In this document: positions 11,240-63,634 of the stretch, piece by piece
Layout: the number at the start of each line of letters is the position of its first letter
How positions within the stretch are numbered: position 1 is the first letter of the stretch
Source: Geosiphon pyriformis uo1
Lineage: Eukaryota > Fungi > Glomeromycota
NCBI GenBank assembly: GCA_016748015.1
Contig: JAAOMT010000328.1
Location: 636,955-700,954 of the forward strand
Direction of reading: 5' to 3'
Length of the DNA stretch: 64,000 nucleotides
Notes under the pieces: generated by a model
Databases searched by the model: none
Seen by the model: only the letters and a program-made list of their open reading frames with translations
What the model was told of the DNA's origin: nothing
Translations under genes and position numbers: made by a program

Positions 11240-11243
11240 TCAC

Positions 11244-11294
11244 CAAGTTATGGATTTGTTATTTGTTTTATACTTTAAATAAACACTTGTAATA
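11244..11294 (+). repeat. Remaining 3' tip of LTR A1 after the element B insertion
   Basis: caagttatggatttgttatttg...tgtaata continues the LTR A sequence broken at 1222 (compare 63404-63454). Confidence 0.85.
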
Positions 11295-11960
11295 GCATCT
11301 TAATTCTTATATGGCAGCTTAATACACAAACAAATAAACTGCTAATCTGTGCATATACTTAATAAAAGCACCATATGAAAAATTGTCTGTAGTAGTTAGA
11401 AAGTACTTATATAATTATAATTATTCAATTATTTTGTGTATATACTATAGTAAAATAAAATTTTTAAACTATAGTTTTATTTGCAGTTTGAATTTGTCTG
11501 CTTATTAGAATTTGTTAAATTAGTGTTTTTTTTTGTTGAAATTTTTTAACCAATACAGCTTTGATTTTATTTGTAGTTTTTCAATCATTAGTTTCATGTG
11601 TTTTTAATATAAGTTTGTATACAGTTTTGTGTAAGAGATTTGTGTTTGAAAATTAGTTGAAGAAAACCAAAACTTCTTTTAGAAATGTTAATTTTGCTGT
11701 GTTTAAGTTAATTAAATTTGTTTAAAATTTAATTATTAACCATAAAAAGTGGATTTAGATGCCTAATTTAAAGCTTTAAACTAATATAGATTATAAAACT
11801 TTATTAGATAAAATAGTTTCTTGTTTGATATTATTTACAGTTTTTTTGTTAAGATTTTAGATAATATTATTTAATTATTGGAAATTAAGAAGAGTTATGT
11901 TATTAGTTTTAATTCAAAAATAGGTTATTTGTTTTTTGTAAGTACAGTTAAGGAAGTTTT
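11295..11960 (+). mobile_element. Decayed 3' end of a LINE ORF2 (zf-RVT-like region)
   Basis: Aligns with 51969-52150+ of the better preserved LINE (HPDSHM...YLIKA...LPVAVRK..Y..VLC..C..DHSF.C). The right boundary is approximate. Confidence 0.7.
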
Positions 11961-13580: not shown

Positions 13581-16500
13581 CTATGAGAGAAATGAATCGT
13601 CGAATTCTTCATCTATTTCAAACCATTTTAAAGTTAAATATCAATAAAAATAATTAACATCATTATTAAAACAAATTTAAAGTGCTTACCGATTTCGTCA
13701 AATTTATTAGAGCTTGAGAAGTCAAATAGATAACTTGAGCTATTGGGATATTCCAGATCTGAAAAAAAGACGTTTAAATCAAAAAAGTTATTTACCTAGT
13801 AAAAAAAATACCAAATAAAAGGCTTACCATATATAGGGTTTGACATTAATTGACTTTCTGAGATTAATTGAATTTCTGAGATTAATTGACTTGTATAACC
13901 TATTATATCACAGGTAACACCTCTTTTTCTAGGGATAGGTTCATTTAAGTTACAGTAATCGTGAGCGGCAATTACTCTATGTTGAAGTTCTTCTGCAGTA
14001 TCACGATAATACGGATCTTGATGCCAATTTTTTCGAATAATTTCCTGAATATATTGAGGTGTATGCTTTTCATCAATTATAGGGCGCTTTCCTTTAAACA
14101 CTTCAAATGGCAAGCGCTTAAGATCTTTAATATTATTCCAAGGTATTTCTCCTGAAATAATTTGCCAGGAAATGATAGCAAAACTGTAAATATCGCTGTA
14201 CGTGGTATGACCAGACGAGTTAAAAATTTCAGGCGCTAGGTATTGGACAACGCCATAAACCTCCTCAGATTGTGAAGAGTAATTGGCAGGACGACAGAGT
14301 CCTAGGTCAGCGATGACAACTTTTAAGGGGTTTGATTTCAAAACAAGGATATTGCCAGGATGTAAGTCCCCATGGACTAGTTTTGAGTCATGTATAAACC
14401 TTAGGCCACTAACGATTTGAAAAAGAATACGAAGAACCATTTCCCAAACAAGAGTGTTTTCGTTCATCTTGAGAAAAGCACCGAGGTCCCCGTGTTCCGC
14501 AAATGGTAAAACCATAATAAATTCATCGGTTGTAGCATCTTTGGTTATTCCATAGCATTGGAGGATGTATTTGCAAGAGGCACTTTTAAGATGCGCAATA
14601 AACTATTTCAAAGCGTTTTCTTGCGTTAGAAAAAGAAATTAGAATAATAAAAATCATATTGATTTCTTAAAAGTAAATACCTCATCTGAATTAATATATT
14701 TTATATTTTGGCTATCTTTAAGATATTTCAAAGCAACTTTTGTAACACCACTCCGTTCATATTTTTGATTTTTCTTGTCCCAAAATAAAATTTTGCCTTT
14801 CTTCCAACTTCCTTTTTTAACAAAACCAAATCCTCCCTCTCCCACCTTATCTAAAAATTCAATCTCGTCGGGAGAAATCCATTCCAAAAAGCCTTTGCTG
14901 CTTTCAGAATTTCGCTGTGTATATATTATATATTGTTTAATATTCGTGTTTCCACTTTTCCAACTTCCCAAAAACTTTGAAAATCTTGAATTTTCACAAA
15001 ATCTACACCAAAGTGGATCTTTTAATGTTCTATCGCATTCTAGACATTTCGGCAAGCCGGCTTCAAATACACTTTTATGACTTTTATCGGTATCACAAAA
15101 TGGACATATAGGAGATCCACTAATGATTATACCCAAGTTACCACATTTAAGACACTTGAATTCATCCGAAAGCTCGTCAAAGAAAGCTTCAAAATGTAAA
15201 TCTCGATTTTGATATTGCAAAATGAAAAGTTCCAGATGATTTTGATCAAGGCCATTCAAATCAGGAAAATCACTTCGATAAATTAAGTTATTTGCCTCTG
15301 CTGCTTTTGAATAAATTACAAGTGCTTTTTCTAAGTTTTTTGTCGTTCCCCATCCATTTTGGTAGCACCATCCAAGGTTGTATTGTGCATTTTGATTTCC
15401 AGCCTCTGCTGCTTTTAAATAGGATTTAAATTCGTTTTCTAAATTTTTCGCTGTTCTCCATCCATTTCGATAATGCGTTCCAATATTGGTTTGTGGATCC
15501 GGATTTCCCGCTTTTTCCAGATCTTTTTTTATTTCTAGTCTATCTCGACATGTACCAATTTTAATTTTTCCAATTATACTTCCCGCCTCTGCAGCTTTTG
15601 AATAGAGTTCAAATGCTTTTTCCTCATTTTTGGTCGTTCCCCATCCATTTGTATAACAAGTTCCAAGACGTATTTGTGCATTTGTATGTCCCGCCTCTGC
15701 AGCTTTTGAATAGAGTTCAAATGCTTTTTCCTCATTTTTGGTCGTTCCCCATCCATTTATATAAGAAAATCCAAGATTGTATTGTGCATATGTATCTCCC
15801 GCCTCTGCAGCTTTTGAATAGAGTTCAAATGCTTTTTCCTCATTTTTAGTCGTTCCCAATCCATTTTGATAACAAAATCCAAGATTTACTTGTGCATTTG
15901 TATCTCCCGCCTCTGCAGCTTTTGAATAGAGTTCAAATGCTTTTTCCTCATTTTTGGTCGTTCCACATCCATTTCGATAACAAAGTCCAAGTTTGTATTG
16001 TGCATTTGTATTACCCGCCTCTGCAGCTTTTGAATAGAGTTCAAATGCTTTTTCCTCATTTTTAGTCGTTCCCCATCCATTTTGATAACAAAGCCCAAGA
16101 TTGTATTGTGCATTTGTATATCCCGCCTCTGCAGCTTTTGAATAGAGTTCAAATGCTTTTTCCTCATTTTTGGTCGTTCCCCATCCATTTCTATAACAAT
16201 TTCCAAGTTCGTCTTGTGCATTTGTATTACCCGCCTCTGCAGCTTTTGAATAGAGTTCAAATGCTTTTTCCTCATTTTTGGTCGTTCCGCATCCATTTAT
16301 ATAACAAACTCCAAGATTGTATTGTGCATATGTATTACCCGCCTCTGCAGCTTTTGAATAGAGTTCAAATGCTTTTTCCTCATTTTCGGTCGTTCCCCAT
16401 CCATCTCTATAACAAGTTCCAAGACTTATTTGTGCATTTGTATGTCCCGCCTCTGCAGCTTTTGAATAGAGTTCAAATGCTTTTTCCTCATTTTTGGTCG

Positions 16501-18265
16501 TTCCCCATCCATTTCTATAACAATTTCCAAGATTGTATTGTGCATTTGTATTTCCCGCCTCTGCAGCTTTTGAATAGAGTTCAAATGCTTTTTCTAAATT
16601 TTTCGTTGTTCCCCATCCATTTCTATAACAATTTCCAAGATTGTATTGTACATTTGTATGTCCCGCCTCTGCAGCTTTTGAATAAAGTTCAAATGCTTTT
16701 TCTAAATTTTTCGTTGTTCCCCATCCATTTCGATAACAAAGTCCAAGATTGTATTGTGCATATGTATTACCCGCCTTTGCAGCTTTTGAATAGAGTTCAA
16801 ATGCTTTTTCTAAATTTTTCGTTGTTCCCCATCCATTTCGATAACAAAGTCCAAGATTGTATTGTGCACTTGTATGTCCCGACTCTGCAGCTTTTGAATA
16901 AAGTTCAAATGCTTTTTCCTCATTTTTCGTTGTTCCCCAGCCATTTCTATAACAATTTCCAAGATTGTATTGTGCATTTGTATTACCCGACTCTGCAGCT
17001 TTTGAATAAAGTTCAAATGCTTTTTCCTCATTTTTGGTCGTTCCCCATCCATTTGTATAACAAGTTCCAAGACTTATTTGTGCATTTGTATGTCCCGCCT
17101 CTGCAGCTTTTGAATAGAGTTCAAACGCTTTTTCCTCATTTTCGGTCGTTCCCCATCCATTTATATAACAAAGCCCAAGATTGTATTGTGCATATGTATT
17201 ACCCGCCTCTGCAGCTTTTGAATAGAGTTCAAATGCTTTTTCCTCATTTTTGGTCGTTCCCCATCCATTTCGATAACAAAGTCCAAGTTTGTATTGTGCA
17301 TTTGTATCTCCCGCCTCTGCAGCTTTTGAATAGAGTTCAAATGCTTTTTCCTCATTTTTGGTCGTTCCGCATCCATTTATATAACAAACTCCAAGATTGT
17401 ATTGTGCACTTGTATCTCCCGCCTCTGCAGCTTTTGAATAGAGTTCAAATGCTTTTTCCTCATTTTTGGTTGTTCCCAATCCATTTGTATAACAAAGTCC
17501 AAGATTTAATTGTGCATTTGTATGTCCCCCCTCTGCAGCTTTTGAAAAGAGTTCAAATGCTTTTTCCTCATTTTTGGTCGTTCCCGATCCTTTTCGATAA
17601 CAATTTCCAAGATTGTATTGTGCATTTGTATTACCCGACTCTGCAGCTTTTGAATAAAGTTCAAATGCTTTTTCTAAATTTTTCGTTGTTCCCCATCCAT
17701 TTCTATAACAATTTCCAAGATTGTATTGTGCACTTGTATGTCCCGACTCTGCAGCTTTTGAATAAAGTTCAAATGCTTTTTCCTCATTTTTCGTTGTTCC
17801 CCATCCATTTCGATAACAAAGTCCAAGATTGTATTGTGCATATGTATTACCCGCCTTTGCAGCTTTTGAATAGAATTCAAATGCTTTTCCTGTATCTTTT
17901 AAAGTACCAATTCCATTATCATAACAATAACCTAGGAAGAATTGTCCAAAAGAATCGTTTGCCTTTGCTGCTATTTGAAATACTAAAAATGCTATTGTTA
18001 AATTAGGAATAGTTCCAATCCCATGTTCTAAAGAAAAGCCGAGCAAAATATAGTCTATTGAACGCTTTGAACTTTTATTTTTCAAGCAATTGAATAAGTC
18101 TTCAGGTGTTTTTTGATTACGCACAAGATATTTTTTCACCAAGTCGGCAACTTTTGAATATTCACTAGCTGGAAAAATGGACAAATTTTCTTTGATGACA
18201 ATCAATGCTTCTTCAAGCCATTCGAGAGATGATGTTGTCTTTTCAATTGATGAAGTTGAAGACAT
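13581..18265 (-). CDS. Sel1-like repeat protein kinase (TKL-like). Predicted exons 18265-14681, 14602-13828, 13758-13690, 13612-13581
   Basis: About 24 Sel1 repeats (AQYNLGxCYxNGWGTTKNEEKAFELYSKAAEAG), a Cys-rich linker, and kinase motifs GEGGFG, VALK, HGDLHPGN, ADLG and YLAPE. GT-AG introns join the ORF pieces in frame. Confidence 0.9.
15560..17960 (-). repeat. Coding tandem array of 108-bp (36-aa) Sel1 repeats
   Basis: Near-identical 108-bp units are directly visible. Confidence 0.95.
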
Positions 18266-19333
18266 GATTTTAAACTTTCAATATTTTTGGATGGGTAAAG
18301 AAGGGAGATTTATCTTGTTATTAAATAAGAAATTTGAAACGCCAAAAAGTTCTGAAAATAGATACTAACTTAATCCTCTCATTTACATTACTTAAAACGG
18401 GTAGAAACTCAGGTTTCAATAGCTGATCAAGTTTAAACTTTAAAAATTTTAAGAATTTTTATCGTCTTTCAATTGGTAAATATTTTATATAAATATTATA
18501 CATTAGATAAAATTTTAATTATAAAAATTAATAATTATACAGTACATGGTCAGTAAACATTTTTTATATTTTTATTTATACCTTTGATGTGTTAAAGGTG
18601 GTAGCTTTATTTTTAAAGATTAATAAAGAAGATGTAGGGGGGGGGGGAATAGAAATTAACAAAATGTTAAAAGTATGTACACTCTGTATTCTTTTTTACA
18701 TTAATAGTTACTTACTTAGAAAAAAAAAAATTTGATGAAAATGAAAGTGTGAACATTATTGAAAATTATAAAAAAGTTATTTAAGCTATTAATTGTAATA
18801 TGTTTAATTTAATGCTGCTTACGAAATCCATCATTTGTTTCTTTATATGAATACAAAAGAATATTTAGTAATCTGGTAAAAAAAGAAGTGCCAATATATT
18901 GATGAAAGAAAGATGGTGATGAAAGATGGAGTATTCACGTTTGCTATAACTTTGGGGATGGCAAGCTGGAATTTCTAGTGTATTCGAAAACTCTTTTTGA
19001 ATGTTGTATTAAATATTTTTTTTAAACTTATACATTTGATTTATTTTAAATGAATTTTTTGCATACCGTTTTTAACGTTTTTTATTAATAAATAAATAAA
19101 TAAATAAAATAAATAAATAAATAAATAAATAAAATAAATATTATCAATGAAAAAATATTATCAATGAAAAAATATTGCCCTTTAAGATTTACCACATTCC
19201 ATTTTCAAAGATTGTTATTTTGGCATTTCACCTGATCGCTAAAGGATTTGATCCATGATAAAATTAAAGGCTGTAGCTCTGAAACTTAACTTCAACACTA
19301 TCTAAATATTTTTGCTTTCAAAATCGAAACACT
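18266..19333. promoter_or_regulatory. Shared intergenic region of two divergently transcribed genes (putative bidirectional promoter)
   Basis: Head-to-head starts at 18265(-) and 19334(+). Contains a poly-G tract (~18637-18648), (TAAA)n at ~19086-19140 and a 17-bp direct duplication at ~19137-19175. Confidence 0.5.
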
Positions 19334-30517: not shown

Positions 30518-31400
30518 TGTTACTCATAAAAAGAAAACAGATAGAGAAAATAACAGACCAATAAGAAAATAGTATTTAGCATGTGAGCACATTGCTTAGC
30601 AATATGAAGCAATGTCAGAAATTATGGCACATTGCTCAGCAAGGTGGAGCAATGTCAGAAAACATGGCACATTACTCAGCAATATGGAGCAATATTAGAA
30701 AATTAGAGCACATCATTCAGCAATGTGAGCATTGCTTAAGAAATCATAGCATATTGCTTGGAAATGTAAACGATCTTGTAGAACATCAATTATGTATATA
30801 TAATAGTAGCGTTAAAAGTAGAAAAAGCAGAATCCATCAGTTAGAAACCTTCTATATTACAAATATCAATAAATAATTATTCACTATTTCAATTCACTCT
30901 TCACTATCAGCACTTCATGTTGATAGTAATTAATACTTAACCACACTGGAACAATAGCTCTTGATCATGGCTATTGACGGGATACTAACTTGCAAATCAC
31001 CTTGGCTTATTTTTTACATTTCTTTATTTTCTTCTATTTCTTTTATTTGATTTTGTTGTATATTAATTGATTAAAAGCACTGAATTATTGATGTCATGGA
31101 TAGCTTGATAAAAGACCCAGAGATAAGAGTAGCATTATATATATTATTGGATAGCTTACCAGAAGAGCACAACTGCCAGAATAAATCTGGCCACCAAGCT
31201 GAGAAAAAAATTGGGAAACAACTTATACAAACTAACTGTGAATAACATCAACAAAAAATCTCTGTCCATTATACAAAGAACTCAACTCCAAAACCTTCAG
31301 ATACAACCAACATACCAGTATTACCAGTATTATCAATCAATTGAGCACCAAGTTATGGGTTTGTTATTTGCTATAAGACTCCAAATAAGCACCTGTAACA
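30518..31400 (+). repeat. 5' LTR of element C (U3 has ~40-bp tandem repeats at 30587-30765; TATA-like at ~30794; AATAAA at ~30868)
   Basis: Direct repeat of 39791-40673 with the same length. Confidence 0.96.
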
Positions 31401-31402
31401 TT

Positions 31403-31418
31403 TGGTGCTCCCTGTGAG
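31403..31418 (+). promoter_or_regulatory. Primer-binding site TGGTGCTCCCTGTGAG (probably tRNA-Ile(UAU))
   Basis: Directly after the LTR. Its complement CTCACAGGGAGCA-CCA resembles the 3' end of eukaryotic tRNA-Ile(UAU) (e.g. CTCACCTGGAGCA). Variants occur at 2201 and 54425. Confidence 0.7.
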
Positions 31419-31461
31419 ATATAATCTTACAGAGAACCAGCACCAACAACTCCATCCAAAA

Positions 31462-34400
31462 GTGGCAGAATCAGAAAACATAGGAGCAAACCATTTAGGA
31501 TTCACAAAATTCTTATTTTAACACTACTGTCAACACTTGGGATTAACCCCGAATCACATATTAGCAGAATCAGTCTTCAACTTTTACATCAATGAAAAAA
31601 TTGCCTACTTATTAGGAACAGCAACAAATACTGAATCAGCAAGAGAAACTTTTTACAACAAATTAATCCAAAACAGCAGCTTACCAACAAACTATAATTT
31701 TGCATCTATCATTACTGAGATTAATAAAGAAATTGAACATCACATCCAACAGAGATACTCAATTATCTATGCAAGTAAAGACAAAGGGAAACTACAAATA
31801 CCAGTAGTAATACCCAAAGAAATACAACCACCCACTTGAAAGAAACACAGAGTTGAATCACCTACCAATCCATCATATCATTATACTCCTGGAAGCACCA
31901 TCAATATCGCATCAACAGGTGCGTCCACATCGAATGTGACATCAACATTTGGATGATTCCTATTTCAAAGTAAACAAAGAAAAGAAGACTTATTAGGACC
32001 ATATGGCGCATATTTTGAAGGATTTAAATCATGATCACCAACATCATCAGGATTTTGATCACTGCCACTTTAACCAGATTTCAGAACCGTGAGTCCTTGG
32101 GAAGTCACAGAATCAGAAAGAAAACAAGAAAAAGAGGAAGAAGAATCTGAGGATCAGGAATTTACATACCAAAACCCGATCCCAGAAAACCCAAAATTTA
32201 AAACCCCAAACATTCAAACTTCAAAAAATCCAAACCAAGAAAATCCGGAAATCAAAATGCCAAATTTTCAAGCTTAGCCAAATCAGAACAACCAAAACTC
32301 CAACTTAATTAATCAACAAAACTTACCTCTAGTAATTGTCATTGATCAACTACCAATTAATCCAATAGCCAAACCTATACAACAACTGCTTCAACAGCCA
32401 CCACAACAACCCAACTTAGACCCAATAGCCTACACACCAATTGCAAAACTTGACAATTTTATCAGCAAAGAGGACGACGCTCAAGTATGGCTGAATGACG
32501 TGGAAAAAGCCATTGCAGCCAACAGATGGAATAACACCCAAGCAATGCAAGTCATTCCCTACTTCCTCAAGGATACCACTGATTCATGGTATCAGAGCTT
32601 GATTAATAAACCACAAGACTTCAATATTTTCAAAGTGGAATTTTTAAGATACTTCAGCAACAATAACAGTATTAATTGCCTAGTCAATACATTTACCACC
32701 ATAAAGCAAGGAGAAACTGAAGCAGTTACTACTTACCTAGAATGCTTCCATAGAAACCTGTGCCAAATTCAAGCAATTAATGCCAACTATTTTACAACAC
32801 CACAGATTCTCAACCAGTTTATCCATGGTTTGCACAGCAGTATCTTGCAACATGTACATCTATTGCATCTAGGCACCCTTCAAGACGCAGTTACCCACAC
32901 CAGAGATTTTGAATCAGCTGAGTTAAAAGCCAACCACACCCAAGCCATTAATCTAGTGATGAACAGATTATCTGAATTGGATTCCAAATTGGAGAAATTC
33001 AGTAAAACAATTAATCAGAAGATAGAGAGATACTTAGTTAACAACAATCAGACAATTTATCAACCACCACAACAATGCAATAATTAAGGAAACTCTAATT
33101 ATCCACAGAACCAACCATGTCTATCTTCATCAACCAATCAACAGTGACAACAAGAAATGCATATCTGCTACTATTGTGGTAAACAAGGACATATCCAAAT
33201 CGACTGCCACCAGCATATAAATAACCAATGATCAGGAAATCAATATCAAAATCCTGATTGCTGGTTCCAATTTTGAATCATCAATCAAACTCAGCACAAT
33301 ATCAAACCACTTACCTGCTGATGATGCAGCAACCAATCTATCAACCATCAGCATATCAAAACCCAATTTATCAACCACAAACAATTTACCAGCCACAGCC
33401 ACCAGTAATATATTAACCACAGCCACAAGTAATCTATTAGCCTCAACAATCAATCCAAACACCACTCCAAAATCCAGCTCAAATGACATTAGGAGATCCC
33501 AGATCCAGAATCACCCAAAACTGGAGATCAGTAATGATCATTCACCAACCAATTCCCAGCTTTTTTTACCAATCCACTGGATCATGCTCTTGGAATTTGG
33601 GTACTGGTTTCAACCAAAACCCAAATTTCCAACACTATTTAAGTCTTCTGGTTACTCCAGAAAATGCCACCACCAACAATCCAGAACCCCATCAACAAAT
33701 AACACTTACCAACAACATCCCACCAGCAACCATTACCAACAATGAATCATTGGCCACCATCTTTCTCTTTGAACTCGAAGAAACCACAACAGTACTGCTA
33801 TTCAGTGGAGCTGCTCTAAAAGAAAAACCCATCACGGCTATGTACACTAATGCAAAAGTTAATGGACACTTCATCAAACTAATCTTAGATAGTGAATCAG
33901 CTGGCAGTATTATTACTAGACAACTCATGGATCAATTAGGTTGCTAAGTTGATCACACTGCCAGTGCCAGAATTATCACAGCTAATGGAGCAACCAAAAC
34001 ATCCATTAGAGAGATTAACAATTTATCCATAGAAGTCAATGGCATTATTATACCAATTAAGGTACTGGTAATGGAAGCCACCCAGTACCAAGCCCTCATT
34101 GGCAACAACTGGCTGTCTAAAGCCAGTGCCATTATGGACTGGAACACGCAAAAGGTTTAACTCAGTCAACATAACCAACATACAAAAGTACCAGCCATCT
34201 GTGGTCACTTTAAATCAAATTATTTCTCCACACTATTGATTGAATTGGAAGAAGAAAAACTGAAACCTACCTGGGAGGTGTACCAAGTGTTGTGGGCCAA
34301 CAATGACCACAACAAACTGCTGCCAATACTATTGTGGGACAAGCCAGTAAAAGGAAAACAAAGAGAAGAACCCACCTGGGAAACTAACAATCTGACATAA

Positions 34401-37400
34401 ACTGACAATAATGACAGTGAACTGACAGTAAATTGGGAGTGGGAAGAAGATAAAGGAAGAGACAAAGGGAAAGGGAAAGAAAAAGACACTACCCAAGCCA
34501 ACAATACTTATATTCCAAACACTTACACTCCACCACAACAGTTTACCTATCGCTAACCCAAATTAATATGCATTAATTGTGGCAAAAAATTGTCATCAAT
34601 GGGCACATGCTGTAGCAATAATGAAGAATATCAAATAGTGACCAAATTTTACTGTTATGTATGCATTATAGAATGCTTTGGACGACTGAAAAGACAAGAA
34701 AAATGGGACAACAAATCTTGTCTAGCTTGTGGTGAAACCTTACTTGATGAAGGAATGTGGAATGACATTTCTGGTCGAGGAGAAACATGCAACACTTTGT
34801 GTCAGTACACGATCCTCATCAGTGACTGGATCAAGAAAAGAACTCCAATAGAAGCTGCTTGGAGAAGAGCTGTGCAGTGATTAGACAGTTGCCCACACAA
34901 CAATGACAAGATCTGGAAAATGACAATGGCCAAGATAGAAGGAACATCACCTGAAAAAATCAGAGAAATCAAAAACAATCCACCAGAACCCATAAAACTT
35001 AACTGGGACTCAGAACCAGTCATAAATTTTCTAGATCCAGAACAATTTCATGAACACTACCAAAAGTTAGCACTCACAAGAGAAGAGCAAGAGCAATATC
35101 TAGAACAATTGAATACTCGACTATGTTAACACTGCCTAATTCCTTGTGACTTTCAATATTGTAATGAGTGTGACCTTATTTACAATCCACCATCATGCAT
35201 GATCTACACAATCTTAAAAGAAAACAAACCAATGAGCAGCTGCATGTCAAAATCGGAATCAGTTTTCAATTCCAATTCAAACTTTGACAATGACGACAAC
35301 AAAAATAATAGTTCCAGCTTCACTTCAATTAGCAACACAAATTATGACAATTCAAACTCTAATTCATACTCCAAAACATTTATCACACTTTCTGATCTTA
35401 CCAAGAAGCATGAACTGAAATGGTTCAGCGATAATAATGAAGGTATCATGCCTGAATATGTGCACAATACTGATGCAGAGTTTAATCTAAGATATCCAGA
35501 GAAAATTCTATTCAATTGGAACCATATTCACACACCTGCATTGATCTCAAGGTAGTATTGGAAATTCCAGCAACAATAATAGTTCAACTAGCATCCAAAA
35601 GTAGTTTAGCAAAAAAAGGGATAAACATTAGAGGAAGAATAATTAACATAGGATACATAGGAAATATCATTGCTATGCTACAAAATGATTCAGAAAAAGC
35701 ATATAGCATAGACCCAAATGAAAAAATAGCACAAGCAATATTCCTATTTCTGGTAAAAATAGCTCAGTTAGTGTCAGTGGGAAACAGGGAAGAATTAGGA
35801 ATTACAATTAGAGGGATACAAGGATTCGGATCAATGGGTAGAATAGATATACCAGTTAATATGACAGAGAAAAAAATTGTTGACAAAGGAGAAATTATCT
35901 CAACTCATCAATCAATCTCTATTCCACCATATGACCAGTATATGTTAGCCATAAAGAGAAAAGTGAAGAATCAAGCTCAATTGTTTGAAGCAGAAGCTAC
36001 TATTTGCAAATCAGGAGAAATTGGACTCACCAATCTCTACATATCAGCCAACAGCTCCAAAAATATCAAAATTCTCATCTACAACACAACGGAACATGTT
36101 ATTGAAATACCAAAAGGAACTGTCATTGGATATTTAACCACCAAAGTTGAAGACCAACCACCAAACCATATTCCAGATTTTCTACAGCTTTGTGGATATA
36201 TGGACATTACATCACAAACCATCTACAGACGAAGTGAATATTATTTGCTCCAACTGGGACAATTGGAACAAACAAACATGGGCAACTTAGATCCACTTTA
36301 ACAGATGCAGCTCAAAATGTTGCTCAACAATTTCAATGACATCTTTGCAAGCAAAAATGAATTTGGCCACACCAACATCATTCAGCATCAGATCAAGACT
36401 AAAGATACAATGCCAATTAAGCAAAGAGCATACAGAGTACTACCAGCTAGCCATAAGATCATTCATCAAGAAATCAACTAGATGCTTGACAATGGGCTAA
36501 TTCAGCCATCAATGAGTCCATGGTCATTACCAGTGGTACTGGTCCAGAAGAAAAATGGAAAAAATCCACTTTTGTGTGGATTATCAAAAACTGAATGGAG
36601 TAACTAAAGGTGATAGCTATCCAACTCCAAAGATCCAAGAACTATTTGACACTTTTGGAGGAAATAAATAGTTCTCAACATTAGATCTAAACAGTGGTTA
36701 CTGGCAAGTAGCTATAAATCTAGCTGACAAAGAGAAAACAGCATTTACCACAAAAGAAGGGAATTTTGAATTTGAAATCATGCCATTTGGCTTGATGAAT
36801 GCCCCAGCAACATTCCAATGGCTCATGAAAATTGTCTATACTAGACTACTATAGAAATTAGTAGTTGTATACTTGAATAACACTAATGTGTTCTCAAAAA
36901 CATTCGATAATCATCTATATCATCTTCAACAAGTGTTTGAAAGATTAAAAAGAGCTGAATTGAAACTAAATGCAACCAAATGTTTTTTTAAAAAAACTGA
37001 ACTCAAGTTTTTGGGACATATAGTAAGTAAAGATGGAATCAAAACAAATTCAGACAAGATAGAGATTGTCAAGAACTTTCTAGTACCAAATAATCTCACA
37101 GAATTAAAAGCATTCTTGGGATTTGCTGAATACTACTACCACTTCATTAAGGACTTTTCCAAAATAGCTCAACCACTACACCAACTCCAAACAAAGAATG
37201 TGAAGTACGAATAGACAGAAACCCAACAAGAAGCTTTTGACATATTAAGAAGAAAGCTTATCCAAGCTCCAGTATTGATGTATCCAGATCACAGCAAACC
37301 ATTCATTATTACTACCAATGTATCTGGCCAAGCATTGGGAGCAGTGCTGTTACAGAAAGGACCAGATGGAAGAGAACATCCAGTAGCTTATGCCAGTAGA

Positions 37401-37673
37401 AGCTTAAGTCCAGCTGAGAAGAACTATGAAACTCCAGCACTAAAACACTTAGCTATCTATTGGGCTGTCATCAAATAGAAGGAATACTTGAGTCAAAAGT
37501 TTGAAGTGTACACTGATCACAAAGGATTGACTTCAATTCAGAAACAAAAATTTGTAGATGATCACCATATCAGATGGAAAATAGAACTTTCACCATTTAA
37601 TTATACAGTACATTATAAAAAGGAAAAAAACAATGGAAATACTAATGAACTGTCATGAATAAGACAAATCTAA
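31462..37673 (+). pseudogene. Element C ORF1: Gag (capsid ~32420-33000, CCHC ~33166-33207), protease (LILDS ~33878), Cys-rich insert (~34560-35190), dUTPase (~35430-35850), RT (YLNN from YLDD ~36870), RNase H
   Basis: Motifs CYYCGKQGHIQIDC, DAEFNL, SKSSL, IINIGYIG, EKIAQ, RGIQGFGS, MPFGL and PVAYASR. Interrupted by transition-derived stops and a few 1-nt indels. Confidence 0.93.
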
Positions 37674-37703
37674 AAACATTTCAACCCAAAAATATAACAA
37701 AAG

Positions 37704-39080
37704 ATGAATACACAAAAATACCAACAACTCCAGTATTATATAAATAATTAATCATTTAAGGAGAAATTATCTCAAAAGGAACAAAACAACATAAAACAAC
37801 AATCAAAATATTTTATTAATCATCAAAATATACTCTACTAGAAGAACAGAAGAAATCCAGATCAACCAATTAGAGTAATCACAGAACCAGAGAAAGAGAC
37901 AGTATTATTCAACATGCACTCAGATCTAACAGCAGGACATTTTCACAAAAAAGTGACCATAGAAAGAACCAAAAAAAGATATTATTGGCCATCAATGTAT
38001 TCAGACATCATCTAATATGTTCAAAATTGTGATACTTGTCAAAGAAGAGGAGGAATAAGACCAAGTGAACCATTAAGACCAATCAAAGTGAGACAACCAT
38101 TCAATTGCATTGGAATTAACTTAGTCGGACCATTAACAATCACCAGTAAGAGCAACAGATATATTGTAGTAGCCATGGATTATCTCACTAAATGGCCAGA
38201 AGCAAAAACTATTCAAAGAGCAGATGCAGAATCCATTACCAAATTTGTCCATCAAGATTTAATATGTCGACATGGATGTCCAAAAAAACTACTATCAGAT
38301 CAAGGAACTCATTTTGTAAATAGAACATTAACAGAATTAAGTCAGAGATTTGGGATAAAAAAACCACTATTATTATTATATCATCCACAAACAAATGGAC
38401 TAGTCAAAAGGTTTAACAGAACATTGTGTGAAGCAATTGCCAAAATCAGTCAAAAGAATCAGAATGAATGGGATTTGTTTATATTATCAGTACTATTTGC
38501 TTATCAAACAATGAAGCATGACACTACACAAGCAACACTATTTGAATTAGTATACAGTAGAACAGCAACATTACCAGTTGAAATAGAAGTCAACACTTAT
38601 CCAACAGAACCAATAACTAAAGACAATTTTCAGAAAACGTTGCTAAGAAGAACATATAACTTGATAGAAACTCTAAAAAACAAGCAATAAAGAGCAGCTA
38701 ATAACATCCAAAAGTCACAAAAAAAACAAAAAAAGAGACACGATAACCAACTACTAGACAAATCAGTTGAATTCAAGATTGGAGACAAAGTATTTCTACA
38801 TTATACTAAAACGGAAAAACAATGGAGTGGAAAATTTGATCCCAAATGAGACAGACCATTCTACATTAAAGAAATTATTGGAAATGGAGCTTATAAACTA
38901 AGATGAGACAACAAAACCTTAGCCAAAACAGCATATGATGATCAACTAAAACCATATCACCAAATAGCATTATTATCCACTAATAACATTCCACAATTAG
39001 GAGTACAACAAATATTAGTTCAACCAGATAAGATTCCATGAGATCTGGAACCAATTATAATCATTGGACCAAACACGTAA
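37704..39080 (+). pseudogene. Element C integrase (HHCC, DDE core, GPF/Y C-terminus; no chromodomain seen), apparently a separate ORF
   Basis: ATG at 37704; H..GHF..YYWP..CDTCQ; LSDQGTHF; YHPQTNGLV(E/K)RFNRTL; stop at 39078-39080. Confidence 0.9.
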
Positions 39081-39141
39081 AATCAAACAATAAAAGAGTA
39101 TATAAAAGACACAGTATATGCGACAAAGGCAACCAAGAAAA

Positions 39142-39777
39142 ATGGAAATACCAGATTATATTCACACCATAACTCAACAATTATTCCAGGCCTTAAGTCA
39201 ACAACCTTTAAACATGGAAATTATCGTTAACAACCAAACAATTTGCTATCAAAACACCAAAAAAAAGACAAAGAATACACCATATCAGCATTTACCAAAG
39301 AATGATAAAAACTGGTCAGATAACATAATTGAAAAAGTAAAGAACACTTTTGGAAAAATACCTATTATGGCACCAACAGAAGAACTTACAAAAAAGAATT
39401 GAAAGCAATAGACAGAGCAACTTCCAATATTATACTGTTACTACCAGTTAGGTTGAAAGTTGAATATTCAGGAGTTGTATATCAACAAATCCAAAAGAGT
39501 ATTTAACCAAAACATAATACAGCAAATTGAAGAATTTATTGGGAAAAAGACAAACTCAACACTACATGTAAGAACAATTTATTGACTGCACAACATATTT
39601 CAGAACTATCCAGAAATACTGTTACACTCTGACATAGAAACCATATCTATTAACCAATAAAGAAGAATAAACAATACACAAGTAGAAAATGTGAAGAACA
39701 GAGTCGAACAAACAATACTTGAAAAAGAAGTATTAGAATTAATTCAAGATGAAGATTTCGATAGAGCTCAATATTAA
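39142..39777 (+). pseudogene. Element C ORF3, ~211-aa protein of unknown function
   Basis: MEIPDYIH...LPILYCYY...EDFDRAQY* in one frame with only a few internal stops, mostly TGG/CGA-derived. Homologs are present in elements A and B. Confidence 0.75.
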
Positions 39778-39790
39778 AAGGAGGAGATAA

Positions 39791-40673
39791 TGTTACTCAT
39801 AAAAAGAAAACAGATAGAGAAAATAGCAGACCAATAAGAAAATAGTATTTAGCATGTGAGCACATTGCTCAGCAATATGGAGCAATGTCAGAAATTATGG
39901 CACATTGTTCAGCAAGATGGAGCAATGTCAGAAAACACAGCACATTGCTCAGCAATATGGAGCAATGTTAGAAAATTAGAGCACATCACTCAACAATATG
40001 AGCATTGCTCAAGAAATTATAACACATTGCTTGGAAATGTAAGTGATCTCATAAAACATTAATTATGTATATATAGTGGTAGTGTTAGAAGTAGAAAGAG
40101 CAGAATCCATCAGTTAGAAACCTTCCACATTACAAATATCAATAAATAATTATTCACTATCTCAATTCACTCTCCACTATTAGTACTTCATATTGATAGT
40201 AATTAATACTTAACTATACTAGAACAATAGCTCTTGATCATGGCTATTGACGGGATACTAACTTGCAAATCGCCTTGGCTTATTTCTTACATTTCTTTAT
40301 TTTCTTCTATTTCTTTTATTTGATTTTGTTATATACTAATTGATTAAAAGTGCTGAGTTATTGACATCACGGATAGCCTGGTAAAAGACTCAGAGATAAG
40401 GGTAGCATTATATATATTATCGGATAGTTTACCAGAAGAGCATGACTGTCAAAATAAATCTGGCCACCAAGCTGAAAAAGAAATTGGAAAACAACTTATA
40501 CAAACTAACTGCGAATAACATTAACAAAGAATCTTTGTTCATTATACAAAGGACTTAACTTTAAAACCTTCAGATACAACCAATGTACTAGTATTACCAA
40601 CATTATCAATCAATTGAGCACCAAGTTATGGGTTTGTTATTTGCTTTGAGACCCCAAATAAGCACCTGTAACA
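39791..40673 (+). repeat. 3' LTR of element C
   Basis: Follows the PPT aaaaggaggagataa. Confidence 0.96.
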
Positions 40674-46114: not shown

Positions 46115-47969
46115 ATGAAGGCTACTGCTAGTGGCACCGCACTTAAGAAAAAGGCTCCTAAAGGTGCTTTTCACGGTCCTGCTGGTGGCTTCTTTTCTCA
46201 GAAGAAAAAAGTTGTTCTTGGTAATGTAAAACATTCTGGTAATGAAAAGGATCTAGTGGCAGTATTTATTTTAATGTGAAGAGTCTATCTGGTGAGAATG
46301 AGGATGTTAACATGTTTGGGACAAATGGTAGGTCTCTTTTGGGTTCAGCTGCTACTACACCCAAGGCAAAGCAAATTAACACTGGTACTGGTTTTGGTTC
46401 TCCACTTGGCTTTCCTAATTTTCATATGGATGATGATGAAGTTGTGCTTCCTCCTCACTTGCTTATCTCTTTAGAAAAAAAGTGGATTGACCCTAAGATT
46501 ATCAAGACTCCTGTGAAAGTGTCAATTAGAAAGTTATTTGCTTTGAATATTAATCTCTCAGCTGTGGAAAATAAATTGGTGATGGCAAAAACTCAGTTAA
46601 TTAGGAAAATTTTTTCAACAGTCAATGGTTTTGGGGGGCCACTACTCCCTCAAAATTTGAAGGGATCATTCGATCTACCTTTACTTTCAAAAAAAGCATA
46701 AATATGGCTGTATCCTTGGCCAGGGAAAAAGGAATTGTTGTAAACACTGATCTCAGAAAATCAGAAGTACGTTCAGATCAGGCTGTAATAATCAAAAAAA
46801 TTCCCATGGATACTCCAAAGGAAATGATTGTTGCTGCAGTTGCTGAGTTTGGTGAAATTAAGTTGATCAAAATTCAGTTAATTGGCATGTGGCAGAAGGC
46901 TGTGGTGAAGTTTGCCAAATCAAGTCAAGCCAATTAGTTGGCCTCAAGATGGTCATTCCTAATTGGGAAAAATTCAGTGCATGTGGCCAAAGCTGTGGGT
47001 GATCATAACACCTGGGCATCTAGAGATTAGTTTAGGGCACTGTTGTTTACTTTGCTGGTGAGAACAACTATGCATGATCTTGGTACTCTTTTGAATAAGA
47101 CTGGTGAGAAAACTTGCACCATTAATTGATTATTGAAGACTGGCAATAGGGTTTGTTGTGCAGTAGTTGGCTTTGAGCCTAAGGTGGATTTGGACTTTGC
47201 CTTTAGTACTAAGTCTGTTTTTGGCAGTGTGTAATTATCATGGGCTAGGTTAGATTTAGTTCAGTGTGGAAAGTATGAAAGATTTGGTCATTTAGCCTTG
47301 GAATGTGATGCTTCTGATGTTGCTATTTATGTGTCTTCTGTTCTCTTTAAAAAAAATGCTCCTGGTATTGATCATCTTCAATTAGCCAAGTTGTATGCAA
47401 AGAAAAATATTTCTATTTCTTGCCCTACTGTCTTTGGTGGCAAATCATGGACTCAAGTAGTCTTTCTTGCTCTCTCTTCTGGTAGCTCTCCTTTTGGCTC
47501 TAGTTATGGTTTAAGCTTTTCTTCGTCTGGTGCTTTGGGGTTGGGTAGTAATGCTTCCTCTTTTTCATGTGATGAGTCTCTCTTGGCTGCTTATTTGGCA
47601 TCTTTGGAGCACTCTCTTGAACTTTTGGCTGACCAGGTTTCTGGTATTCTTAGGAAATTGAGTTTTGTTAAATTGGTGCCCATGGTACCGTCTTCTGGTG
47701 CTCCTTCTTTGGTCGGCTTTGTGCTGGTGGCTCCTGTTTTGGATTTGGATATGGCTTTGAATGGTGTGTTGGTTTCTTCTTTTCCCCCTCCCTCAAGTGT
47801 TGAGTTAGGTGCTGGTTTCAATTTGAGTAGTTCAAAGATTCTGACCACCAAGATAAGTGGTTTAGAGTCTAAAATGTCAGCTATAAAGGCTTTGGTCAGT
47901 TCTGTTTTGGTGAAATTGGATCTCTTGTGTTCTGGTTTGGGTTTCTCTTTACCTCTTTCATCCCAATGA
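46115..47969 (+). pseudogene. LINE ORF1 (degenerate zinc knuckle ~47260-47306; C-terminal leucine-rich/coiled segments)
   Basis: MKATASG...; C..(C)..FGH....C; disrupted by stops and frameshifts. Confidence 0.8.
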
Positions 47970-50900
47970 ATGATCTGGTTTGAAAATTTGCTATGTGTAA
48001 TGTTCATGAAATCAATGTCCCTGCCAAGCAGGAGAATGTTATGCATTGACATTGAAATTCTGACAATTTGGTTTCATTCATCATGGAAACAAAGTTAAAG
48101 GTTTTTACTAGGCCATGGATTGTGAATAAGTTTAATGGAGTGCAAATTTTTTCTTCAGGATTGGATAAAAGTTTCATTGGTGCTGGTGTTGCTATAATTA
48201 TGGACAATTCCTTGGCTCGTTATGTTTCTAAGGTGGAAGAGGTTTCTAGTAGGATTGTTTCTGTTCGGCTCTTATTTAAAGGCAAGCTCTTGGTTACTCT
48301 TTTGAGTTTATATGCTGGTGCCTTTTCTGGGGCTAGATTTGGTCAGACTTCTGAAGTTAACTCTCTCATTGCAAAAGCCATCAATTCCAGTACTCATGTT
48401 GTTTTGGGTGGGAACTTTAATGAGAATGGATCTGGTAAGAGTACAAGTTTCAAGTTCTGTTTGGGTTTGGGTTTGGTCAATTCATTTAGCAGTCATTATT
48501 CAGCTGGTTCTCATACATGGAACAACTCAAGAGGGGTTGTGAAAACAATTAATTATATTTTTGTTAGTGGCAGCTTGTCTTCGGCTGTTGCTGATCATCA
48601 AACAGTCTCTGTTTCAGATTTCTTTGACACTAATCACAGGGCAGTTATGGTGTCAATTGGTTTGAGTGGGCTTCTGAATGTTCAATTGAATAGCTTGCAC
48701 AAGCAGATGAATAGGGATCGTTGGAAATTCAAGTTCAAAAATGCTGACAATGCTAAATGGGCTAAGTTTAGGGATCTCTCCTCAGCAAAACTCTTGTTAT
48801 TGGGTGACGTGTTCTCTGGTGCAGAAGCACGTGGTGATGTGGATACTATGTGAACAATGTTGCAGGAGGCTGTAGTAGAATTTGCTGATGAGATGTTTTC
48901 AAAACATTGGTTCAGCAAATTTAAGGGTCCGAAAAACAAGCATTCTTCCAAGTTTTTTGGCTTGGAATTATTGGTGGCCAAAATTGTCAAGAAATTTTGC
49001 TCTGGTGGCTTGTCTGATGTCAATCTTCTTGTGAGTAAATGGTTGACTCTGGATAATGCCAAGACTTGTGCCTTCAGTGACTTGGTTAGCTCGGGTGTTA
49101 AATCTGATGTTATTGTTAAGCATTTGTCATTGATCTGCAGAGATTACAGGAGAGCCAAGATGTTTGAGTCGAGGTTTGCTAAGGAAACTTCTATTAGAAA
49201 GGCAATTAATAGGCACATGGATAATTTCTGTTCAGAAAAAAGTAGTATGATAAGAAGTGTGTTGGACAGACCCTTTCACAAAGTAGTGTTGGATCACCTG
49301 GTGGTTGATGACGAATTGGTTTTAGAGCCTAAAGAGGTGAAGATGAGTGTGGACAAGATAATAGAAGGGTGGACAAGAAAAAATCAGTACATGCAGTGAT
49401 CCCTGATCATTGGACTCGGCAGTATGCGCTATTAAGCTATGTTCAAGATGATGTCTTTTCTGGTGTTATGTATGAGGTTGACATGGATGAGTTGCTTTCT
49501 GTTGTTAGTGGTCTGTTTGATGGCAAGGCCACTGGTTTGTCTGGTATTCCAAATGAGTTGTGGAAACATGATGGTGAGGTGGTTTTGGGATGCATGTTAG
49601 CATTATTTAATGTGTGTTTGACTGCTGGTGTGGTACCTGTTTTATGGAAAAAGGTGTGGGTTTCTATGATTTCTAAGCCTTACAACTGAGATGGGGTCCT
49701 CATGAACACTCGACTCATTGCTTTGATTAAAACTGTCAAGAAAATTCTGTCTAAGATTCTGTCTGATTGTATTTCAGTGGCTTGCAGCAAATTCAACATT
49801 CTTCAGAGTGACAATTTCTTAGTGTTGAAAGGTATGTCTACACAATCTCCAGTGTTTGCTGTTGGTTCAGTGATTAAAGATACTCTTGAAAAAAATTGAG
49901 AGGTTTGGTTGGTTTTGCAGGATATGCAGAAGACTTATGATTCAGTTGAATAGCACCATTTGAAGGCTAGCTTGCAGCATATCAAGATGTGTGAGAAGTT
50001 TATAAGATTTTTCAGTGGTATTCATGAGGATAGGGTTAACAGGGTAATGACTGACTTTGGTTTATCTGATGGCTACAAGGTGCATGATGGTCTAAATTAG
50101 GATGAGGTTTTTTCACCTCTCCTGTGGAGGATCTTTTATGATCTGCTCTTGTGTGAGGTTAAGAGGCATGAACAATTGTGTGAGTACTGGATTGATACTA
50201 AGTTTGTTTCAAAAACTGGCAGAATTGAGGGTGGTAGTGGTTTGACTTTATACTTTTTGGCTGGCACATTTGTTGATGATACAATCTGGGTTGGAAATTG
50301 TCAGACTTCTACTCAATATGCATTGAACATTGCCAGTGAGTTTTTTATGATCAATGATATTTCTATTAACAGTGAGAAGACAGTAGTTATTCTCATAAAT
50401 CAGGGTGTTAAGATTGCTAAGCTGAGTATTTGTGGTCAGTCTATTTTGATTGCTAAGAAGGGCAAAGCTAATCACTATTTGGGTATTTTTTTGTCAACTG
50501 AAAGGTTGTCCAAGCTAAGTATTGCCAAGGCTCATGCAGATGTGCATTTTTTTGTCAATGTTGTACTTAGAAAGGCAATTATGGACAAACAATTCTTGTA
50601 TTTGGTTTCAGCTGTTTTACAGCCTATTGTCAACTATCGTATTGAGTTCAGTTTTGTCTCTTCTAATGTTTGTCGCAAGTGGGATGCCTTAGTTAGGAAG
50701 GGTCTCAAATCTAAAGCTTGTCTTCCTCATGATTTTTCTAATGCTGCTTTGCATTATTCATTATTCTATGGCCTGAAACTTTTTGAGCAGGTGTAGTCCA
50801 AAGGGAAAGTGGCTGCTTTGATAATGTTCTCCAATGCTTCTGGTGTTCTTGGGCATTTGTTTAATCATAGATTTTTGGATTTGCAGGTTCTTGGTTGGGC

Positions 50901-63454: not shown

Positions 63455-63634
63455 GCATCCTAATTCTTATATGACAACTTAATACACAAACAAATAAACT
63501 GCTAATTTGTATATATACTTAATAAAAGCACTATATAGAAAATTGTTTATAGTAGTCAGAAAGTGCTTATATAATTATAATTATTCAAGTATTTTGTATA
63601 TACACTATAGTAAAATAGAATTCTTAAACCATAG
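63455..63634 (+). mobile_element. LINE ORF2 3' fragment, paralogous to 11295-11474
   Basis: Colinear, with mostly transition differences. Confidence 0.85.

What the first reader, a model, noticed from the sequence alone, without database searches (positions are those of the whole stretch)
30904..31300. Conserved, apparently covarying structured RNA in an unusually long U5, shared by four LTR families
Seen: the U3 halves of LTRs A, B and C are unrelated, but downstream of the TATA/AATAAA they keep the same ordered blocks, and D shares the 3' blocks visible in the window. The blocks are: hairpin CTATCARCA/TGTTGATAG; ATACTTAACCACACTGGA; hairpin CAATAGC/GCTATTG; GGGATACTAAC plus a long pyrimidine tract; a multibranch helix CTGGTAA...TTACCAG enclosing ACCC/GGGT and a second stem that is CTCA/TGAG in A and B but CATA/TATG in D (compensatory); YGGC-CACCAA-GCTG; and GTCC-ATTATACAAA-GGAC. 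Loops vary in length while stems persist. Inference: this is a ~500-nt functional RNA module, such as an IRES for the non-AUG start, a packaging/dimerisation signal (palindromes AGCGCT and GACGTC are reconstructable), or an unrecognised ribozyme. I could not match it to hammerhead, hairpin, twister, pistol or HDV cores by eye.
Basis: partly seen in the sequence, partly recalled or inferred. Interest (0 to 1): 0.78.

Follow-up and report, generated by a model that had tools for sequence, protein, structure and literature searches.

The report
Conserved RNA leader in fungal retrotransposon
The ends of decayed jumping genes in the fungus Geosiphon carry a ~500-base stretch whose key blocks are as conserved as protein code, and it is likely a folded RNA leader that would pair and package the element's genome and guard its primer site, ahead of a gag gene that likely starts at GUG instead of AUG.

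Summary
The blocks are real. They lie in the LTRs of dUTPase-bearing Ty3/Gypsy elements whose gag relatives are all named Geosiphon pyriformis. Once C>T/G>A decay is set aside, the 86-nt core (30904-30989) has 4 purine/pyrimidine-variable columns among families A, B and C, against 20 of 81 fourfold sites: real constraint. 'Covarying' is overstated. The covariation score does not beat shuffles (107 of 500), and the whole region folds no better than chance (z +0.3). Only 2 of 64 pairs show compensation that decay cannot mimic: stem P3 in D, and AGCGCT to TGCGCA in A. P3 is missing in family C, the family at the finding's coordinates. No Rfam family or ribozyme core matches. The leader is depleted of AUG here and in nine related elements, which favours scanning over an IRES. 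Gag likely starts at a conserved GUG (31462). A hairpin at the U5 end covers the primer site. The module is absent from 80 related metagenome loci. Best reading (45%): a U5-encoded leader for dimerisation, packaging and primer control. A branch-point-like TACTAAC plus pyrimidine tract remains unexplained.

The parts
30519..31400 (+). 5' LTR of element C (TG...CA); 3' twin at 39790-40673, 91% identical
30795..30842 (+). TATA box and Inr-like TCAGT; start of transcription inferred near 30838
   Evidence: sequence; motif labels recalled
30869..30874 (+). AATAAA, likely poly(A) signal; R/U5 border inferred just downstream
   Evidence: sequence; an AATAAA lies 84-361 nt before the LTR end in 9 related loci
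30904..30926 (+). Hairpin 1 (9-10 bp); its arms also read as two inverted GATA-type DNA sites
   Evidence: 0 of 23 columns variable in C5/B5/A5; fold; GATA label recalled
30932..30950 (+). Invariant single-stranded block (G)ATACTTAACCACACTGGA; no partner found elsewhere in the element
   Evidence: 0 of 19 columns variable in all 7 copies that cover it; partner search; 30932 is G in 81% of laid depth
30952..30976 (+). Hairpin 2, with the palindrome TGATCA (30962-30967) in its loop; candidate kissing loop
   Evidence: (predicted dimer 12 kcal/mol below two monomers)
30979..31058 (+). GGGATACTAAC (branch-point-like) followed by a pyrimidine tract; no AG until 31076-31077
   Evidence: 0 of 13 columns variable in the motif; alignment; branch-point label recalled
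31059..31074 (+). Second TACTAAY-like motif and TGATTAA block
   Evidence: 1 of 17 columns variable
31076..31095 (+). Two 6-nt palindromes visible across decayed copies: AGCGCT (TGCGCA in all three A copies) and GACGTC
31105..31162 (+). Three-way junction P1/P2/P3; P3 compensated in D, not formed in family C
31188..31201 (+). Small hairpin with CACCAA loop (CACCAT in family B, which makes an upstream ATG there)
31257..31285 (+). AATCTCT-GTCC-ATTATACAAA-GGAC block
   Evidence: 0 of 29 columns variable in C5/B5/A5
31343..31410 (+). U5-end hairpin of about 25 bp; GAGCACCAA pairs with the primer-binding site
   Evidence: z -5.1; anti-PBS run beats shuffles in C5 (1 of 500) and A5 (2 of 500), not in B5, whose PBS is decayed
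31403..31418 (+). Primer-binding site TGGTGCTCCCTGTGAG, tRNA type
   Evidence: sequence; assignment to tRNA-Ile is recalled and not tested
31462..31464 (+). GTG, likely start codon of ORF1/gag, behind an A/C-rich spacer of non-conserved frame
   Evidence: GTG in 3 of 3 5' copies; Val in 93 of 103 gene models, Met in 3
32278..38690 (+). Decayed gag, protease, dUTPase, RT, RNase H, integrase
   Evidence: Pfam

Best explanation
The conserved U5 blocks are likely a folded RNA leader at the 5' end of the element's genomic RNA, which would let two copies pair through short palindromes, be picked up by Gag, and keep the primer-binding site folded away until priming. Shown: the blocks are under purifying selection; nine helices are complementary in nearly all copies; two pairs change on both sides in a way decay cannot mimic; the U5 end can pair with the PBS; the leader lacks ancestral AUGs; ORF1 has no conserved AUG and begins at a conserved GTG only 61-64 nt after the LTR. 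Inferred: transcription starts near 30838 and poly(A) follows the AATAAA, so the module occurs once, at the 5' end. With gag starting right after the PBS, there is little non-coding room downstream, so dimer and packaging signals would sit in U5. Ribosomes would scan the ~620-nt AUG-free leader to a weak GUG, which would keep Gag-Pol output low. The invariant single-stranded blocks (GATACTTAACC..., GATACTAAC, ATTATACAAA) would be binding sites for Gag or a host protein.
For: Constraint: (4 of 86 vs 20 of 81). The variable columns sit in a 5-nt linker inside the core, which argues against recent homogenisation. Genome-wide: of 4715 contigs of run X1 laid on 30890-31010, the 16 listed differences are all transitions and no indel is listed. 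The core is the deepest bin of 30700-31700 (2.2 M against 0.07-0.21 M in U3 and ~0.5 M at the U5 end; depth is no copy number). Pairing: 89% of cells pair, against 30-44% for slid controls. Compensated pairs: T-A to A-T in P3 of D, and A-T to T-A around GCGC in A. Translated gene models (349 examined) fit P3 loops of other lengths (14 H[SL]IE-type, 2 TH.FE-type) and a D-type stem in 6 further models (codon-level inference only). Ty1 dimerises through palindromes in its 5' UTR (PMC6844567, abstract). Ty3 needs a 6-nt palindrome at a hairpin tip, and its PBS tends to pair intramolecularly (PMC11381356, passages).
Against: No global covariation signal (107 of 500 shuffles), and no global folding signal (z +0.30; +0.4, -0.4 and -1.4 on decay-merged copies). 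P3 is broken in family C. About eight 6-nt palindromes are expected by chance in 500 nt, and TGATCA and GACGTC show no covariation. Five of six palindromes in Ty3's 5' RNA showed no dimerisation role (PMC11381356, passages). Invariant stems cannot be told from DNA inverted repeats. Ten related elements with the same layout lack the module, so the clade does not need it. The table is evidently incomplete: 30910 G>A, listed, is missing from it. No mechanism step was tested.
Confidence: 0.45

Rival explanations
1. The module mainly controls translation: it slows or positions scanning ribosomes, or recruits a factor, so that the weak GUG start is used. A classical IRES is the less likely form of this.
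For: GTG in 3 of 3 families; Val in 93 of 103 models with all three frames found upstream. Module and GUG start co-occur: the nine related elements scored start with ATG and lack the module. The integrase is also expressed unusually, behind a stop.
Against: AUG depletion (7 unexplained ATG against 27-62 for its letter permutations; 6 against 53.5 in relatives) points to plain scanning. Most blocks lie 180-560 nt upstream of the GUG. Five of 14 fetched models begin with Met at this position, so a family with a true AUG is not excluded, though G>A decay and gene callers' preference for ATG would explain them.
Confidence: 0.2
2. GATACTAAC, the pyrimidine tract and the second TACTAAY form a branch-point/3' splice signal that recruits SF1/U2AF/U2, either for a leader intron or as a decoy that affects poly(A) choice or export.
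For: The motif is invariant (0 of 13), has no partner within the element, and is followed by ~85 nt without AG in C5. A near-copy, GATACTTAAC, sits 47 nt upstream. Extended complementarity to U2 snRNA is recalled, not tested.
Against: No conserved GT donor between the inferred start and the motif, and no conserved YAG (AAG in B, C and D; GCAG further down in A). None of the 10 related LTRs has TACTAAY in its last 600 nt. An intron would not need to avoid AUG.
Confidence: 0.13
3. The blocks are DNA elements of the downstream promoter: inverted GATA sites (hairpin 1 arms), a CRE-like TGACGTCA and a homeodomain-like TAATTGATTA.
For: Hairpin 1 and 2 stems never vary beyond decay, as expected of sequence-specific sites. 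The motifs match recalled consensus sites and lie just behind the TATA box.
Against: Nested P1/P2/P3 stems with variable loops, two compensated pairs and the anti-PBS pairing are RNA-like. The outer CRE pair is broken in B.
Confidence: 0.12
4. Nothing is selected: the families are close relatives or recently exchanged U5, and short inverted repeats arise by chance.
For: Families differ at only 62 of 408 fourfold-site comparisons by transversion. The three-way junction and pyrimidine tract as wholes are not below neutral. 7-bp inverted repeats are common in AT-rich DNA.
Against: The core and the 31257-31285 block are as invariant as first+second codon positions, while linkers between them are more diverged than fourfold sites (11 of 18, 3 of 5, 18 of 38).
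Confidence: 0.06
5. An unrecognised self-cleaving ribozyme.
For: Invariant single-stranded nucleotides next to short stems and a three-way junction.
Against: No Rfam hit near a gathering score. No strict hammerhead CUGANGA on either strand, and no decay-tolerant match to hairpin loop B 3' strand, group I or group II cores; the tolerant matches to other cores fell in T/A-rich runs. Cleavage in U5 would cut R off the template, which an LTR element needs.
Confidence: 0.04

Closest known systems
Ty1 5' leader with PAL1/PAL2 (PMC6844567, abstract; PMC4974528, passages)
   Same: Structured 5' end of an LTR-retrotransposon RNA with palindromes in the 5' UTR; packaging signals within the first few hundred nucleotides.
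   Different: Ty1 is a Copia element with a short UTR, a PBS inside GAG and an AUG start. Here ~500 nt of U5 precede the PBS, gag likely starts at GUG, and no function is tested.
Ty3 DS/PAL6 (PMC11381356, passages) and the HIV-1 DIS hairpin (recalled)
   Same: A 6-nt palindrome at a hairpin tip; a PBS that pairs intramolecularly.
   Different: Ty3's site lies in GAG and HIV's lies downstream of the PBS; here the candidates are upstream of the PBS, in the LTR. TGATCA is AU-richer than those palindromes.
Cassandra, Helenus and Ajax TRIMs (PMC10886601, abstract and introduction)
   Same: A strongly conserved RNA-like block inside otherwise diverging LTRs.
   Different: Those blocks derive from 5S rRNA or tRNA and act as Pol III promoters in non-autonomous elements. 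Here there is no Rfam or ARAGORN match, and the elements are full length with a TATA box.
PEG10 non-AUG start (PMC2800197, abstract and headings)
   Same: A retrotransposon-derived gag initiated at a non-AUG codon.
   Different: PEG10 is a domesticated gene using CUG as well as AUG. Here a whole transposon lineage appears to have GUG and no conserved AUG in the first 110 codons.
Related Ty3/Gypsy elements in soil metagenomes (L009, L015, L018, L039, L041, L055, L056, L063, L068, L074)
   Same: Same LTR-PBS-ORF1 layout and AUG-poor leaders up to 884 nt; L068 also has an anti-PBS hairpin.
   Different: No sequence or model match to the module, shorter U5, ATG starts.

Membership tests
Ty3/Gypsy LTR retrotransposon | gag, protease, RT, RNase H, integrase in this order between LTRs | tested here: met
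Ty3/Gypsy LTR retrotransposon | PBS after the 5' LTR and target-site duplication | tested here: met
   PBS in A, B and C; 4-bp duplication TCAC for B and ATAG/ATGG for C, none seen for A
Retroelement dimer/packaging leader (PAL/DIS type) | self-complementary sequence near the 5' end of the genomic RNA | tested here: met
   TGATCA in a hairpin loop; AGCGCT/TGCGCA compensated; GACGTC; position relative to RNA ends inferred
Retroelement dimer/packaging leader (PAL/DIS type) | conserved secondary structure | tested here: inconclusive
   89% of cells paired but covariation not above shuffles; 2 of 64 pairs compensated, 2 broken in C
Retroelement dimer/packaging leader (PAL/DIS type) | palindrome-dependent dimerisation and Gag binding | not testable with these tools
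   only a predicted dimer energy
IRES | tolerates upstream AUGs (no need to scan) | tested here: not met
   leader is AUG-depleted after decay correction, as are relatives
IRES | cap-independent initiation | not testable with these tools
   needs a bicistronic assay
Known self-cleaving ribozymes and group I/II introns | conserved catalytic core | tested here: not met
   Rfam (on decayed copies); motif scan of hammerhead, hairpin, HDV, group I and II cores (motifs recalled); twister, pistol and hatchet covered by Rfam only
Spliceosomal intron 3' end | branch point and pyrimidine tract | tested here: met
Spliceosomal intron 3' end | conserved upstream GT donor and YAG acceptor | tested here: not met
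   alignment, read by eye
Spliceosomal intron 3' end | spliced reads | not testable with these tools
Small-RNA-derived LTR (Cassandra/Helenus/Ajax) | 5S rRNA- or tRNA-derived segment | tested here: not met
Tf1-type self-priming | 5' end of the transcript complementary to the PBS | tested here: not met
   the complement lies 51 nt before the LTR end, ~510 nt from the inferred start; mechanism recalled

The most novel reading that the evidence does not exclude
A lineage of Ty3/Gypsy elements carries in U5 a new class of structured RNA that uses a branch-point mimic to bind the host's SF1/U2 machinery without splicing, and couples this to genome dimerisation and to initiation of gag at GUG. It would be the first LTR-borne spliceosome decoy in a retrotransposon.
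Probability: 0.12. Interest if true: 0.8.

Novelty: new variant of a known kind. Interest (0 to 1): 0.45.

Why it matters
Cis-acting RNA signals are mapped for very few LTR retrotransposons, and packaging signals are still poorly defined even for Ty1 and Ty3 (PMC4974528, passages). LTR elements cover 41.2% of the G. pyriformis genome (PMC11952901, passage), so thousands of copies could give the covariation power that four families lack. A ~500-nt constrained module upstream of the PBS, together with a lineage-wide GUG start for gag and a separate integrase gene, would be an unusual expression strategy. Its reach is limited: all copies seen are decayed, and the module was found in this species only.

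Tried and rejected
No whole genome is held. DNA patterns of the core found nothing in viral contigs, metagenome contigs or genome contigs. The integrase alignment found no relative in viral contigs (77 candidates, 0 confirmed). It gave 80 loci from metagenomes (the best 80 of 302 confirmed). A nucleotide profile and a covariance model of the core matched none of the 80; only 10 of them reach a recognisable LTR-PBS junction. No RNA holder was listed, so splicing, ends and expression were not examined. Joints seen in DNA contigs at 80% likeness were single-contig and not GT..AG and were ignored. Run X3 laid nothing. RNAalifold on the raw alignment recovered only some helices, with a covariation term of -0.59. 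My first hand structure had two helices off by one column and was corrected. A search for long-range partners of nine single-stranded blocks gave only 7-9-nt chance-level matches, and none for the two invariant blocks. An anti-PBS pairing beat shuffles in only 1 of 10 related loci (L068), so it is not a clade-wide trait. Resemblances to U1, U2, U6, tRNA D-arm, 5S and Pol III A-box sequences were noticed from memory. They are 7-12 nt long, gave no Rfam hit and could not be tested without host RNA genes. Literature searches listed no paper on this module or on a GUG-initiated retrotransposon gag; only listings were seen, and the species' genome paper was not among them. No supplements were opened.

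Full report
Context. Self-comparison shows eight LTR copies of four families in the window. Element C (30519-40673) encodes decayed gag, protease, dUTPase, RT, RNase H and integrase, so it is a Ty3/Gypsy element. All 120 listed gag relatives (of 256 hits) and all 120 listed ORF1 relatives (of 182 hits) are named Geosiphon pyriformis. So were 10 of 10 further representatives looked up. One model, P0279, matches a translation of C5's U5 at 100% over 30 residues. Differences between LTR copies of one family are almost all transitions: 76 of 77 in C, 114 of 120 in B, 373 of 395 in A. They are highest at CG, 39 of 48. I therefore used purine/pyrimidine differences to measure divergence between families.

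The observation. Among C5, B5 and A5 the core 30904-30989 has 4 variable columns of 86, three of them in a 5-nt linker. Fourfold-degenerate sites have 20 of 81 and first+second codon positions 64 of 1800. The block 31257-31285 has 0 of 29 and the U5 end 5 of 61. The linkers are more diverged than fourfold sites (11 of 18, 18 of 38). The three-way junction (10 of 57) and the pyrimidine tract (14 of 67) are not below neutral as wholes. Blocks were chosen after seeing the alignment. In run X1, 14,315 of 2,090,870 contigs lay on 30700-31700, and depth peaks on the core (depth is no copy number). On 30890-31010, 4715 contigs gave 16 listed differences, all transitions, and no indel. That table omits at least one difference seen, so it is incomplete. 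U3 is unrelated for C, but A and B align over the whole LTR at 66-68%.

Structure. The raw 501 nt fold no better than shuffles (z +0.30). Decay-merged copies give +0.4, -0.4 and -1.4 (40 shuffles each). The core (z -2.9, 3 of 200 shuffles) and the U5-end/PBS hairpin (z -5.1, 0 of 200) stand out, while the junction region of C3 does not (z -0.5). A hand-drawn structure of 56 pairs has 89% of cells paired against 30-44% when slid, but its covariation score is reached by 107 of 500 shuffles. Most 'both-sides' changes are C-G to T-A, which two decay events also produce. Of 64 pairs (stems plus three palindromes), 58 have no purine/pyrimidine variation, 2 are artefacts of A0's cut end, 2 break in family C (P3) and 2 are compensated. 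Gene models that happen to translate U5 add indirect support for P3 (349 proteins examined). Fourteen read H[SL]IE, which fits CTCA and TGAG with a very short loop; 2 read TH.FE, a 6-nt loop; and 6 (five MYRRY, one GHIQKIQ) fit a D-type stem with CG decay on either strand. This is codon-level inference and not DNA. Two C-type models give no P3. So the RNA fold is likely for some helices and unproven for hairpins 1 and 2, whose stems never vary.

Translation. In A5, B5 and C5 ORF1 begins with GTG GCA GAA 61, 63 or 64 nt after the LTR, so the spacer does not keep frame. In 103 scorable models (17 of 120 lacked my anchor) this residue is Val in 93 and Met in 3. All three frames of the spacer are found upstream (67, 13 and 10 models), and no downstream Met exceeds 4 of 103 within 110 residues. 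Against this, 5 of 14 fetched models begin with Met here; G>A decay and gene callers' preference for ATG would explain that. In the leader, 28 of 35 ATGs are read as less decayed triplets in another copy. Seven remain, in 4 columns, against 27-62 for the five permutations of the same letters and 26 of 62 for the antisense triplet. Family B has a fixed ATG in the CACCAT loop. Nine related metagenome elements have 6 ATG in their leaders against 53.5 expected, 7 of 9 have none, one leader is 884 nt long, and all nine start ORF1 with ATG. L068 was left out of that count because no ATG-started ORF was scored before its contig ends. A long AUG-free leader is thus a clade trait and points to scanning, not to an IRES.

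Distribution. Neither a nucleotide profile nor a covariance model of the core matched any of 80 related loci, 10 of which reach an LTR-PBS junction. Their first AATAAA lies 84-361 nt before the LTR end and about 420 nt in L068, against 531 nt in C5. U5 is long here, but not out of all proportion. Pattern scans of three collections were blank. The ORF1 N-terminal domain was also seen only in proteins of this species, where names were checked.

What it is not. No Rfam family comes near its gathering score, ARAGORN finds no tRNA, and no known ribozyme core is conserved. The branch-point-like GATACTAAC with its pyrimidine tract is invariant, but I found no conserved donor or YAG, no partner within the element and no such motif in the related LTRs. 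It remains the main unexplained feature. Hairpin 1's arms and TGACGTCA also fit recalled DNA-binding consensus sites, which invariant stems cannot exclude.

Mechanism. I put 45% on a U5-encoded leader for dimerisation, packaging and primer-site control. The rivals are translation control of the GUG start (20%), a splice-factor or 3'-processing element (13%), DNA promoter sites (12%), shared descent (6%) and a ribozyme (4%). These are odds for the main role and need not exclude each other. Shown are constraint, complementarity, two compensated pairs, the anti-PBS pairing (C5 1 of 500 shuffles, A5 2 of 500, B5 not significant), AUG depletion and the conserved GTG. Inferred are the RNA ends, dimerisation, Gag binding and GUG initiation.

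Comparison. It would work like the Ty1 leader, whose 5' UTR palindromes are essential for dimers (PMC6844567, abstract), and like Ty3's palindrome at a hairpin tip (PMC11381356, passages). It differs in lying wholly upstream of the PBS. Membership cannot be settled without assays. It is not a Cassandra/Helenus/Ajax-type small-RNA insert (PMC10886601, part 1 of 6). A non-AUG start is known for the domesticated gag gene PEG10 (PMC2800197, abstract and headings). LTRs cover 41.2% of this genome (PMC11952901, passages). Packaging signals of Ty1 and Ty3 are not precisely defined (PMC4974528, passages). Searches listed nothing on this module or on a GUG-initiated retrotransposon gag; only listings were seen. 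Earlier notes of this scan hold nothing on the module. Two unreviewed notes on a stand-alone integrase agree with a stop at 37671 in all three families and an ATG at 37704 in C and A (ATA in B).

Verdict. A real, constrained and apparently undescribed LTR leader, probably structured in part, with weaker covariation than claimed and no evidence for a ribozyme or IRES. New variant of a known kind; interest 0.45.

Noticed in passing
window 31462-31464; also 2262 (B) and 54487 (A): ORF1/gag likely starts at a conserved GTG in good context, behind an A/C-rich spacer of non-conserved frame; Val in 93 of 103 gene models. This may deserve its own follow-up.
   Followed up: yes
window 37671-37706: RNase H frame ends in TAA in A, B and C, and an ATG (ATA in B) follows ~30 nt later, so the integrase looks like a separate gene, as earlier notes of this scan say.
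   Followed up: partly
window 35486-36298: dUTPase domain between protease and RT, preceded by a Cys-rich stretch at 34557-35200.
   Followed up: no
window 1219-1225 and 11240-11243: Element B is inserted into the U5 of LTR A0, inside the anti-PBS motif, with a 4-bp duplication TCAC.
   Followed up: partly
window 11242-11479 and 63401-63639: The 3' LTRs A0 and A3 are followed by the same flank (88% over 239 nt, of which ~185 lie outside the LTR), so they likely come from one duplicated insertion and are not independent. LTR D sits, inverted, in this flank at 63637. A5 and A3 show no matching target duplication.
   Followed up: partly
window 31188-31201; B copies near 1979 and 11020: The loop CACCAA equals a tRNA 3' end and a second anti-PBS motif. 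In family B it reads GCCACCATG, a Kozak-like upstream ATG; the same variant appears as a loose end in X1.
   Followed up: no
window 39100-39770: A further, less conserved ORF between integrase and the 3' LTR in A, B and C, without a convincing Pfam family; relatives have similar 3' ORFs.
   Followed up: no
window 13796-18277 (minus): Protein-kinase and Sel1-repeat gene with 23 repeats of 108 nt.
   Followed up: no
window 47235-52596: Decayed ORFs with weak endonuclease and RT hits, likely a LINE-like element.
   Followed up: no
run X2 on window 31070-31307: One 330-nt contig of X2, a run that holds next to none of the window's words, carries a C-like version of the 3' half of the module with 31 other letters and 10 gaps; its source is unknown.
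   Followed up: no
L041 5963-6877; L068 2633-2652: L041 has an 884-nt leader without ATG, 460 nt of it after the PBS. L068 has an anti-PBS hairpin at its LTR end.
   Followed up: partly
window LTR pairs: Decay is highest at CG but also strong at CA, CC and CT, which is broader than CpG methylation alone would give.
   Followed up: no
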